From Escherichia coli (GTDB lineage Bacteria > Pseudomonadota > Gammaproteobacteria > Enterobacterales > Enterobacteriaceae), in NCBI RefSeq assembly GCF_045037415.1, contig NZ_CP173438.1: DNA of 64,000 nt; one strand, given 5' to 3'. A program made the translations under genes and the position numbers. Shown piece by piece: positions 53,063 to 53,939 of the stretch. The notes beneath the pieces were generated by a model. That model had not been told where the DNA came from. It did not search any database and saw nothing but the letters and a program-made list of their open reading frames with translations. Each line of letters begins with the position of its first letter. The stretch's first letter is position 1.

Positions 53063-53895
53063 GAACACACCTTTTATCTTTTATCGCTGTTCAGTATGAG
53101 TGATTACCTGTGGATTCCTGAGCACACATAAGGGGTAACCATAAACATTAGCGATGCCATACGTATAACATCCCACATCACTATCAAGAAGATTATCTTT
53201 ACCTCTGATGCTCGCTCAAAAACAGTTACGCTAAATACCTTAAAAAGGTAATCACAAGTCAAACTCAGGAGATAATCACGCAAGAATGCAATATTAAAAT
53301 TCAGATACTCATTTTTGGTAATAAAGAAGTAGTTGGACTATTTCGATATTTATAATTTCCCACTACGTATTGACGTCCATTCATGAGTAAAGGCGCATTA
53401 TATGAATTTAACAATCCAGATCAACTGAAAATACCTCAACCTCATAAACACATAGCGTCAACATTCAATGACATAATGAGTAAAGATGTTGGTTATGCAT
53501 ACACGTCATTACTCTATGCTAATCCCTTAACAACCTGCTTTTTAAGACTGAATCCATTCAGCAATAGATAGCCAACATTATAACAATGACAATAAAAACA
53601 ATATTTAAAACAATCAATAAAATATCAGACACAGACAATTAAACCTTAAACAACAAACGGTTACATTGATTTTGGTTGATTTGCGCTACGCGTTTCCCAT
53701 GAATAAAGCGTCATTTCAAATTAGCACCAATATTTACATTAAATAAGACTAAGCTTATTGAACATTCACAACAGTCCAAGCGTAGGTTTTGGGCTTCAAT
53801 AGTTCTTTTCTTTTTTATTATCTGTTGCCTGGCAATCATCAATCGATACTAAGGGCTTAACTGTACACAGATATAACGTATCAAGAGGTAAGAGA

Positions 53896-53927
53896 AACCG
53901 CGCCATATGCAGACATGGCGCGGTTTT
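53896..53927 (-). terminator. Rho-independent terminator downstream of betT (AAACCGCGCCAT-loop-ATGGCGCGGTTTT)
   Basis: 11-bp GC-rich stem with flanking A/T tracts, 12 nt past the betT stop; symmetric so potentially bidirectional. Confidence 0.55.
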
Positions 53928-53939
53928 ATGCAATAACAA

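What the first reader, a model, noticed from the sequence alone, without database searches (positions are those of the whole stretch)
53063..53939. Long (~870 bp) AT-rich region upstream of pdeL
The c-di-GMP phosphodiesterase gene pdeL is preceded by an unusually long non-coding region containing only a weak 62-codon ORF (53383-53571) with no RBS. This is consistent with a complex, multi-input promoter (pdeL is known to be autoregulated and subject to global regulators) rather than with a missing gene.
Basis: partly seen in the sequence, partly recalled or inferred. Interest (0 to 1): 0.2.

Follow-up and report, generated by a model that had tools for sequence, protein, structure and literature searches.

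The report
Known pdeL control region, hidden yahV

Summary
The region 53063-53939 is an 877-bp gap with 34.7% GC (window 51.8%), lying between betT and pdeL, both on the minus strand. It is the E. coli betT-pdeL intergenic region, whose K-12 version has been dissected experimentally. All published elements are present in the window:
- the betT terminator hairpin
- the PdeL palindrome CIB, AATAAG-N6-CTTATT (53742-53759)
- the Cra box (53547-53562), with the adjoining Cra-dependent PdeL box
- the sigma-70 promoter TTGATC-16-TATAAT (53424-53397)

An inferred leader of about 327 nt follows the promoter.

The claim that the region holds "only a weak 62-codon ORF" is wrong. The ortholog of yahV sits at 53558-53632 (-). 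This 24-aa protein was detected by epitope tag in K-12, and its stop codon overlaps the Cra box. The ORF is intact in 8 of 8 E. coli alleles. It is broken in two non-coli Escherichia genomes and shows no purifying selection. The 62-codon ORF is antisense, has no RBS, matches no family, and is broken in the same outgroups.

One result is new as far as I could find. About 26% of E. coli genomes carry the adhesin gene ehaA here instead. The same Cra box, PdeL palindrome and core promoter precede it.

The parts
53888..53927 (-). betT intrinsic terminator: a 14-bp G+C-rich hairpin (53895-53926) followed by UUUCUCUU
   Evidence: free energy -23.9 kcal/mol, z = -4.0, and 0 of 200 shuffles fold as well. 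The hairpin is 100% conserved in both haplotypes. The simple terminator scan missed it.
53765..53887 (-). Distal AT-rich segment with an A-tract (ATAATAAAAAAGAAAAGAAC). Presumed H-NS-bound DNA.
   Evidence: Composition. Identity to the non-coli Escherichia outgroups is moderate, 0.64-0.80 at 53790-53864. H-NS binding is taken from the literature only.
53742..53759 (.). CIB, the Cra-independent PdeL box: perfect palindrome AATAAG-N6-CTTATT. In K-12 H-NS competes with PdeL here.
   Evidence: It is the only exact match in the 64-kb window. It lies inside the published CIB EMSA fragment, which maps to 53706-53772. The half-sites are invariant in all 10 sequences aligned, the 8 E. coli alleles and the two outgroup loci.
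53558..53632 (-). yahV ortholog: 24 codons, GTG start, product VSDILLIVLNIVFIVIVIMLAIYC. AAGG lies at 53643-53646.
   Evidence: It is orthologous in position to the annotated K-12 YahV. The protein was detected by SPA tag in K-12. The ORF is intact in 8 of 8 E. coli alleles and broken in L007 and L008. Of its variable sites, 10 are nonsynonymous and 1 synonymous.
53547..53562 (-). Cra box GCTGAATGGATTCAGT, overlapping the last sense codon and the stop codon of yahV
   Evidence: It is the best match to the Cra consensus in the window. It lies inside the published CB/CDB oligo. It is invariant in every sequence examined, including the ehaA-type loci.
53534..53551 (-). CDB, the Cra-dependent PdeL box, placed by homology to the K-12 oligo. 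The core AGTCTTA is kept, and 4 substitutions lie further downstream.
   Evidence: Binding has not been tested for this allele.
53455..53489 (-). Conserved block of unknown role (CATCTTTACTCATTATGTCATTGAATGTTGACGC) between the Cra box and the -35 hexamer
   Evidence: Phylogenetic footprint: identity is 1.00 to K-12 and about 0.8 to the outgroups. The block is absent from the ehaA-type loci.
53397..53424 (-). pdeL sigma-70 promoter: -35 TTGATC (53424-53419), 16-nt spacer, -10 TATAAT (53402-53397). The region's only GATC (53419-53422) lies in the -35 hexamer.
   Evidence: The scan scored it 10 of 12. Shimada 2014 lists the same hexamers for yahA. It lies inside the fragment used for RNA polymerase recruitment, which maps to 53385-53563. 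Divergence from K-12 is 0%. It is conserved in all lineages, including upstream of ehaA.
53063..53390 (-). Inferred pdeL leader of about 327 nt. The transcription start is inferred at about 53390. The pdeL ribosome-binding site AAGG is at 53070-53073.
   Evidence: The start is inferred from the -10 position only. The last 100 nt or so are 84-100% identical to the outgroups. There is no significant fold (z = -1.5) and no Rfam match. The ORFs inside it are broken in the outgroups.
53383..53571 (+). It is antisense to the pdeL promoter and to the Cra box, and most likely non-coding.
   Evidence: It has no RBS and no Pfam or NCBIfam match. Its start is ACG with internal stops in L007, and it has stops in L008. 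Its variable sites split 21 nonsynonymous to 6 synonymous and are spread evenly over codon positions.
51974..53062 (-). pdeL: LuxR/GerE helix-turn-helix domain plus EAL domain, a c-di-GMP phosphodiesterase and transcription factor
   Evidence: Pfam GerE at 1.2e-7 and EAL at 1.5e-61. It is annotated as PdeL in the genome with the 100%-identical region.
53940..55973 (-). betT, the choline transporter. This is the upstream neighbour whose terminator opens the region.

Best explanation
The region is the betT-pdeL intergenic region of E. coli, in its yahV-type haplotype. This is an AT-rich, H-NS-silenced, multi-input control region for pdeL that also carries a tiny translated ORF.

Read in the pdeL direction (minus strand), the order is:
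1. the betT terminator
2. AT-rich DNA
3. the PdeL palindrome CIB
4. yahV
6. a conserved block of unknown role
7. the sigma-70 promoter
8. a leader of about 327 nt
9. pdeL

Mechanism shown in K-12 by others. Cra binds its box and allows PdeL to bind the adjacent CDB. PdeL also binds CIB about 180 bp upstream, where it competes with H-NS. Together Cra and PdeL recruit RNA polymerase. High c-di-GMP switches PdeL out of its activating form, which gives positive autoregulation and a bistable switch.

Inferred here. The same mechanism operates in this strain, because CIB, the Cra box and the promoter are identical or invariant. The transcription start lies near 53390. yahV sits in the roughly 180 bp of DNA between the two PdeL sites. 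It is a young, E. coli-restricted translated ORF whose peptide sequence is not under detectable constraint.
For: Identity of the locus: the flanking genes and the annotation of matching genomes.

Literature mechanism. The oligo sequences come and were mapped to the window.

Elements present and unique: the Cra box is the best match in 64 kb, the CIB palindrome is the only exact match, and the promoter scores 10 of 12 with the same hexamers listed by Shimada 2014, who also flag H-NS.

Phylogenetic footprint: conservation peaks fall exactly on CIB, the yahV start region, the Cra box, the promoter and the proximal leader.

yahV: annotated in K-12, protein detected, and intact in 8 of 8 E. coli alleles.

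H-NS-type behaviour: AT-richness, and two independent IS insertions at or next to CIB in natural isolates.
Against: - No binding or transcription data exist for this allele.
- The CDB differs from K-12 at 4 positions.
- I found no mapped transcription start, so the leader length is inferred.
- A scan for the H-NS high-affinity motif showed no enrichment.
- The conservation of the proximal leader is unexplained. There is no significant RNA fold, and part of the low divergence from K-12 may be a recombination tract that also covers the first 200 nt of pdeL.
- The function of yahV is unknown, and its substitution pattern argues against a conserved protein function.
Confidence: 0.85

Rival explanations
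1. The 62-codon plus-strand ORF (53383-53571) is a real protein-coding gene that annotation has missed.
For: The ORF is open in all 8 E. coli alleles sampled. In vitro run-off arrays found transcription of this intergenic region in the antisense direction, with a sigma-S preference.
Against: It has no RBS and no family match. In the outgroups the start becomes ACG and stops or frameshifts appear, although the DNA is alignable. Its 27 changes split 21 nonsynonymous to 6 synonymous and are spread evenly over codon positions. It overlaps the Cra box and the promoter, which explain its DNA conservation. The E. coli alleles are only 0-7% diverged, so an open frame is weak evidence.
Confidence: 0.03
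2. The region is the decayed remnant of a lost gene, the autotransporter ehaA that occupies this site in other strains. The long 'non-coding' stretch would then be a pseudogene scar.
For: ehaA lies exactly between betT and pdeL in O55:H7, O157:H7 and other strains, and its upstream region (the query) is found in 1402 of 5426 genomes. The Cra box (an exact 17-mer), the core promoter and a PdeL palindrome are shared. E. albertii shows ehaA decaying in place between this promoter and pdeL.
Against: tblastn of EhaA against the region finds nothing; the best hit has E = 0.35 over 24 aa. Word-7 blastn finds only the Cra box and the promoter. The yahV-type arrangement also exists in two non-coli Escherichia genomes, so it is old and not a recent deletion.
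Confidence: 0.1
3. The long conserved leader (53063-53390) encodes a cis-regulatory RNA, such as a riboswitch, a thermosensor or an sRNA target, or a separate small RNA. The conservation would then reflect that RNA and not promoter complexity.
For: The last 100 nt or so before the pdeL ATG are 84-100% identical even to the outgroups, which are about 50% diverged in the distal region. Divergence from K-12 is 2.7% in the leader, against a dS of 0.12 in pdeL.
Against: There is no Rfam match at E <= 1. The fold z-score is only -1.5. There are too few diverged sequences for a covariation test. The low divergence from K-12 extends into the first 200 nt of pdeL, which suggests a recombination tract.
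Confidence: 0.1
4. YahV is a functional membrane peptide, for example a modulator of BetT or of osmotic or motility signalling, as proposed from co-localisation. On this view the region matters mainly as its gene.
For: The protein was detected in K-12. It is hydrophobic, with a predicted transmembrane helix, and co-localises with bet and pdeL. The ORF is intact in all E. coli alleles sampled, including this B2-type allele where it is not annotated.
Against: Of 11 variable sites, 10 are nonsynonymous and 8 fall at codon position 2, including I>N, V>G and L>S. The ORF is broken in L007 and L008 while the flanking regulatory DNA is conserved. The hydrophobicity follows directly from T-rich codons in AT-rich DNA.
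Confidence: 0.15

Closest known systems
pdeL (yahA) promoter region of E. coli K-12 (Shimada 2005/2011; Reinders 2016; Reinders 2021 preprint)
   Same: The locus and gene order are the same. The Cra box is identical and the CIB palindrome half-sites are identical. The -35 and -10 hexamers and their spacing are identical. The region is AT-rich and flagged as H-NS-associated.
   Different: Overall identity is 93%. Divergence is concentrated upstream of the promoter, reaching 16% between CIB and yahV. There are 4 substitutions in the CDB oligo region. The K-12 GATC next to CIB is absent. This is a B2/UPEC-type allele, and the strain carries the hyxR/ipbA island.
yahV (b4730), a 24-aa small protein of K-12 (VanOrsdel 2018)
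   Same: The position, length, GTG start and reading frame are the same, and the stop codon overlaps the Cra box.
   Different: 7 of 24 residues differ. PGAP does not annotate it in a genome whose region is 100% identical. Expression in this strain has not been tested.
ehaA upstream region of O157:H7/O55:H7-type E. coli and E. whittamii
   Same: The site between betT and pdeL is the same. The 17-mer Cra box is an exact match. The TTGATy...TATAATGCGC promoter sits at the same distance from it (157 versus 160 nt). A PdeL-type palindrome AATAAG-N6-CTTAT is present.
   Different: The module drives, or at least precedes, a 3984-bp adhesin gene and not pdeL directly. The palindrome lies 22 nt downstream of the Cra box instead of 180 bp upstream. 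There is no yahV and no 327-nt leader. The linked pdeL belongs to a different protein lineage, with dN about 0.04.
H-NS-silenced loci that IS insertions can activate, such as bgl and flhDC (from general knowledge, not tested here)
   Same: The upstream region is AT-rich and reported as H-NS-repressed. Natural IS1 and IS5 insertions cluster within 30 bp of each other in it.
   Different: Whether these insertions activate pdeL is unknown. Silencing here is countered by the gene's own product together with Cra.

Membership tests
E. coli betT-pdeL intergenic region / pdeL promoter (Cra, PdeL, H-NS) | Lies between betT and pdeL, with both genes on the same strand | tested here: met
E. coli betT-pdeL intergenic region / pdeL promoter (Cra, PdeL, H-NS) | Cra box GCTGAATGGATTCAGT upstream of the promoter | tested here: met
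   Located at 53547-53562. It is the best match in the window and lies inside the published oligo.
E. coli betT-pdeL intergenic region / pdeL promoter (Cra, PdeL, H-NS) | PdeL palindrome (CIB) far upstream | tested here: met
   Located at 53742-53759. It is an exact and unique match and lies inside the published EMSA fragment.
E. coli betT-pdeL intergenic region / pdeL promoter (Cra, PdeL, H-NS) | Sigma-70 promoter TTGATC-16-TATAAT | tested here: met
E. coli betT-pdeL intergenic region / pdeL promoter (Cra, PdeL, H-NS) | H-NS binding and silencing; Cra- and PdeL-dependent, c-di-GMP-sensitive activation | not testable with these tools
   Only AT-richness and the K-12 literature bear on this. 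The H-NS motif scan was uninformative.
yahV small-protein gene | Intact 24-codon ORF with a GTG start at the orthologous position | tested here: met
yahV small-protein gene | Protein product made | not testable with these tools
   The SPA-tag detection was done in K-12 only.
yahV small-protein gene | Purifying selection on the protein, or conservation beyond E. coli | tested here: not met
   10 nonsynonymous to 1 synonymous change, and dS = 0 between the window and K-12. The ORF is broken in L007 and L008.
Protein-coding gene (the 62-codon ORF) | RBS, conservation of the frame in relatives, codon-position bias, family match | tested here: not met
Known structured RNA (Rfam family) or stable leader structure | Covariance-model match, or a fold better than shuffled sequence | tested here: not met
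   No Rfam match at E <= 1. Fold z = -1.5.
Rho-independent terminator (betT 3' end) | G+C-rich hairpin followed by a U-tract directly after the stop codon | tested here: met
   Free energy -23.9 kcal/mol, z = -4.0, followed by UUUCUCUU.
ehaA pseudogene remnant | Residual protein or DNA similarity to ehaA | tested here: not met
   tblastn and word-7 blastn found only the Cra box and the promoter, both of which lie upstream of ehaA.

The most novel reading that the evidence does not exclude
The Cra box, PdeL palindrome and promoter form an ancestral Escherichia control module that sits upstream of the adhesin gene ehaA in about a quarter of E. coli genomes, in E. whittamii and, in decayed form, in E. 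albertii.

On this reading, the module in the yahV-type haplotype (this window, K-12) has been rearranged and now reads directly into pdeL. That rearrangement would have created the self-activating, bistable PdeL switch described in K-12. yahV would be a de novo ORF born in the AT-rich DNA between the two PdeL sites.

A corollary can be tested in EHEC-type strains: EhaA expression should be under direct Cra and c-di-GMP/PdeL control.
Probability: 0.3. Interest if true: 0.5.

Novelty: already known. Interest (0 to 1): 0.2.

Why it matters
For the window itself it matters little. The region is a textbook-grade example of a long, H-NS-silenced, multi-factor promoter, and its parts are already published.

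Three points have some value:
- yahV is intact but unannotated in B2-type genomes. It evolves like a young translated ORF, which makes it a useful case for proto-gene studies and a caution against reading its hydrophobicity as function.
- The regulatory DNA is the conserved part of the region. The ORFs inside it are not.
- The same Cra/PdeL/promoter module precedes the biofilm adhesin gene ehaA in EHEC-type strains. That suggests a direct, untested link between central metabolism, c-di-GMP sensing and adhesin expression. It also suggests a route by which a bistable switch could arise through promoter rearrangement.

Tried and rejected
- **Rfam.** A scan of 52800-54200 at E <= 1 found nothing.
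- **Terminator scan.** The simple scan missed the betT hairpin. Folding recovered it.
- **H-NS motif.** A scan for TCGATAAATT with up to 2 mismatches gave 2 hits in the region and no meaningful enrichment. It is uninformative.
- **Leader fold.** The z-score was -1.5, not significant. Only two diverged homologs exist, so I did not attempt a covariation test.
- **ehaA remnant.** tblastn of EhaA and word-7 blastn of the ehaA locus against the region found no residual coding similarity.
- **Family searches.** Pfam and NCBIfam found nothing for YahV, the 62-codon ORF or the 59-codon leader ORF.
- **Leader ORF.** The 59-codon ORF at 53104-53283 (-) was rejected because it is broken in the outgroups.
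- **Transcription start.** I could not find a mapped pdeL start. Reinders 2016, Yilmaz 2020, Shimada 2011 and Weaver 2019 are not held, and the 2021 preprint gives no start position.
- **Literature link.** Searches for a published link between ehaA and pdeL or Cra found nothing relevant. One search was wasted on short prefix terms.
- **Database searches not run.** I ran no further search on 24-62-aa ORFs, because the DNA-level orthologs already answer the conservation question.

Full report
**What is at the coordinates**

Both flanking genes are on the minus strand. betT occupies 53940-55973. pdeL occupies 51974-53062 and has GerE/LuxR and EAL domains. The 877 bp between them therefore lie downstream of betT and upstream of pdeL, and should be read as the reverse complement.

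GC is 0.347 against 0.518 for the window, which is the lowest 1.3% of windows of that size. The gap is the second largest in the window, where the median gap is 79 bp.

Megablast places the region in 5183 of 5426 complete E. coli genomes. It covers at least 80% of the query in 3650 of them, and some strains are 100% identical. The strain carries the hyxR/ipbA island next to betA, so it is of UPEC/B2 type.

K-12 annotates "protein YahV" inside this region. The ortholog in the window is 53558-53632 (-). It has a GTG start, 24 codons, and the product VSDILLIVLNIVFIVIVIMLAIYC. YahV was detected by chromosomal SPA tag in K-12. PGAP does not annotate the ORF in a genome whose region is 100% identical.

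**Mapping the published control elements**

For K-12, Cra and PdeL co-activate pdeL. PdeL binds a Cra-dependent box (CDB) next to the Cra box and a Cra-independent palindrome (CIB) further upstream. H-NS competes at CIB and silences the promoter. c-di-GMP switches PdeL off.

I mapped the published oligos onto the window:

| Published fragment | Window coordinates |
|---|---|
| CIB EMSA fragment | 53706-53772 |
| Cra box / CDB oligo | 53534-53563 |
| RNA polymerase recruitment fragment | 53385-53563 |

Within these fragments:
- The palindrome AATAAG-N6-CTTATT (53742-53759) is the only exact match in 64 kb.
- The Cra box (53547-53562) is the best Cra-consensus match in the window.
- The promoter TTGATC-16-TATAAT (53424-53397) is the one Shimada 2014 list for the H-NS-flagged betT>yahA spacer.

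The betT terminator is a 14-bp hairpin at 53895-53926 (free energy -23.9 kcal/mol, z = -4.0).

The transcription start is inferred at about 53390, which gives a leader of about 327 nt. I found no mapped start.

The Cra box overlaps the yahV stop codon. yahV lies in the roughly 180 bp between the two PdeL sites.

**Conservation**

A scan of species-representative genomes with PdeL found full-length orthologs only in Escherichia. Two non-coli genomes, L007 and L008, carry a yahV-type region that is 71-73% identical.

Conservation peaks fall on CIB, the yahV start region, the Cra box, a block at 53455-53489, the promoter, and the last 100 nt or so before pdeL.

The ORFs do not share this conservation:
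- **yahV** is intact in 8 of 8 E. coli alleles but broken in both outgroups. Its 11 variable sites are 10 nonsynonymous to 1 synonymous, and 8 are at codon position 2.
It loses its start and gains stops in the outgroups. Its changes split 21 nonsynonymous to 6 synonymous with no codon-position bias.
- **A 59-codon leader ORF** is also broken in the outgroups.

The leader has no Rfam match and no significant fold.

**An alternative haplotype**

In O55:H7, O157:H7 and many other strains, only the betT terminator matches the window. The gap there holds the 3984-bp autotransporter adhesin gene ehaA. The ehaA upstream region is found in 1402 of 5426 genomes. Homology to the window breaks at 53898 and at 53073, which is 11 bp before the pdeL ATG.

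Several elements are nevertheless shared, in both E. coli and E. whittamii:
- The exact 17-mer Cra box lies upstream of ehaA.
- The core promoter (TTGATT...TATAATGCGC) follows it at nearly the same spacing, 157 versus 160 nt.
- A PdeL-type palindrome (AATAAG-N6-CTTAT) lies 22 nt downstream of the Cra box.

Across all loci fetched, that palindrome occurs once in each pdeL locus whose upstream region is intact and complete, and in no unrelated locus. It is missing from L006, where IS5 splits it, and from L009, where the contig ends.

E. albertii has the same promoter followed by ehaA fragments and then pdeL. PdeL itself falls into two protein lineages that follow the upstream type: dN is 0.036-0.048 between types and at most 0.017 within a type among E. 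coli, E. whittamii and the two yahV-type outgroup genomes; E. albertii is more distant from both (dN 0.047-0.069).

I found no paper linking ehaA to Cra or PdeL. This part is therefore inference.

**Verdict**

The region is the known pdeL control region. The "complex promoter" reading is right, and so is the dismissal of the 62-codon ORF. The statement that nothing else is encoded is wrong, because of yahV. Novelty: already known. Interest: low.

The shared ehaA/pdeL control module and the proto-gene-like behaviour of yahV are the only points worth a follow-up.

Noticed in passing
L004 1486-5469 (ehaA) and 5470-6042; L005; L010 2260-6858: In about 26% of complete E. coli genomes, and in E. whittamii, the betT-pdeL gap holds the adhesin gene ehaA. 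Upstream of it lie the same 17-mer Cra box, a PdeL-type palindrome (AATAAGACGATTCTTATA) and the same core promoter as in the window. This predicts Cra and PdeL control of ehaA.
   Followed up: partly
window 53725-53736 and 53749-53753 (insertions seen in L050 and L006): There are two independent natural IS insertions within 30 bp of each other. IS1 in strain Nord8, whose allele is otherwise identical, sits just on the pdeL side of CIB. An IS5-family element in strain PI12 sits inside the CIB spacer and destroys the palindrome. This is reminiscent of IS activation of H-NS-silenced genes. The effect on pdeL is unknown.
   Followed up: partly
window 53419-53422: The only GATC in the 877 bp lies inside the -35 hexamer (TTGATC). 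The outgroups and the ehaA-type promoters have TTGATT. A 2025 preprint lists yahA/pdeL among the most down-regulated genes in a dam mutant (log2FC -3.08). Whether that effect is direct is unknown.
   Followed up: partly
window 53063-53939, plus strand (K-12 IG330721_331594-r): Published in vitro run-off arrays report antisense transcription of this intergenic region, with a sigma-S preference (ratio 2.07). A conserved plus-strand TATAAT at 53351-53356 would face the pdeL promoter. The position of the antisense start is not known.
   Followed up: no
window 53558-53632: Variation in yahV among E. coli alleles is concentrated at codon position 2 (8 of 11 variable sites). This is the opposite of a gene under purifying selection. 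The sample is small and the alleles are not independent.
   Followed up: partly
L007 1-6177; L008 1-6217; L010 2260-2326: In two non-coli Escherichia genomes, homologs of the lactate-utilisation genes (lutABC/ykgEFG type) directly adjoin the pdeL upstream region and there is no bet operon. E. whittamii keeps only 67 nt at the end of the bet unit: the last 26 nt of betT, the 13-nt gap after its stop codon and the betT-proximal half of the terminator hairpin. The bet cluster is therefore a variable insert at this site.
   Followed up: partly
window 51974-53062 versus L004 256-1344: PdeL exists in two protein lineages, with dN about 0.04 and the differences clustered at the N-terminus. Each lineage is linked to one upstream haplotype. 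PGAP names the ehaA-linked form only 'EAL domain-containing protein'.
   Followed up: partly
window 60184-60905 and 61509-61837: There are two more very AT-rich gaps (GC 0.26 and 0.30) beside betA. They flank ipbA (fimX/hbiF), a tyrosine invertase, and hyxR, a LuxR regulator, in the UPEC island that also encodes hyxA and the autotransporter hyxB. From my own knowledge, the ipbA-hyxR gap is the expected site of the known invertible hyxR promoter element.
   Followed up: no
window 40886-41768: This is the largest ORF-free gap in the window (883 bp, GC 0.40). It lies between yahK and yahN and holds a frameshifted yahM pseudogene in the matching annotated genome.
   Followed up: no
L054 1-100: In strain 2023CK-01687, pdeL is annotated as a truncated pseudogene missing its C-terminus. 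The upstream region and the yahV ORF there remain intact.
   Followed up: no
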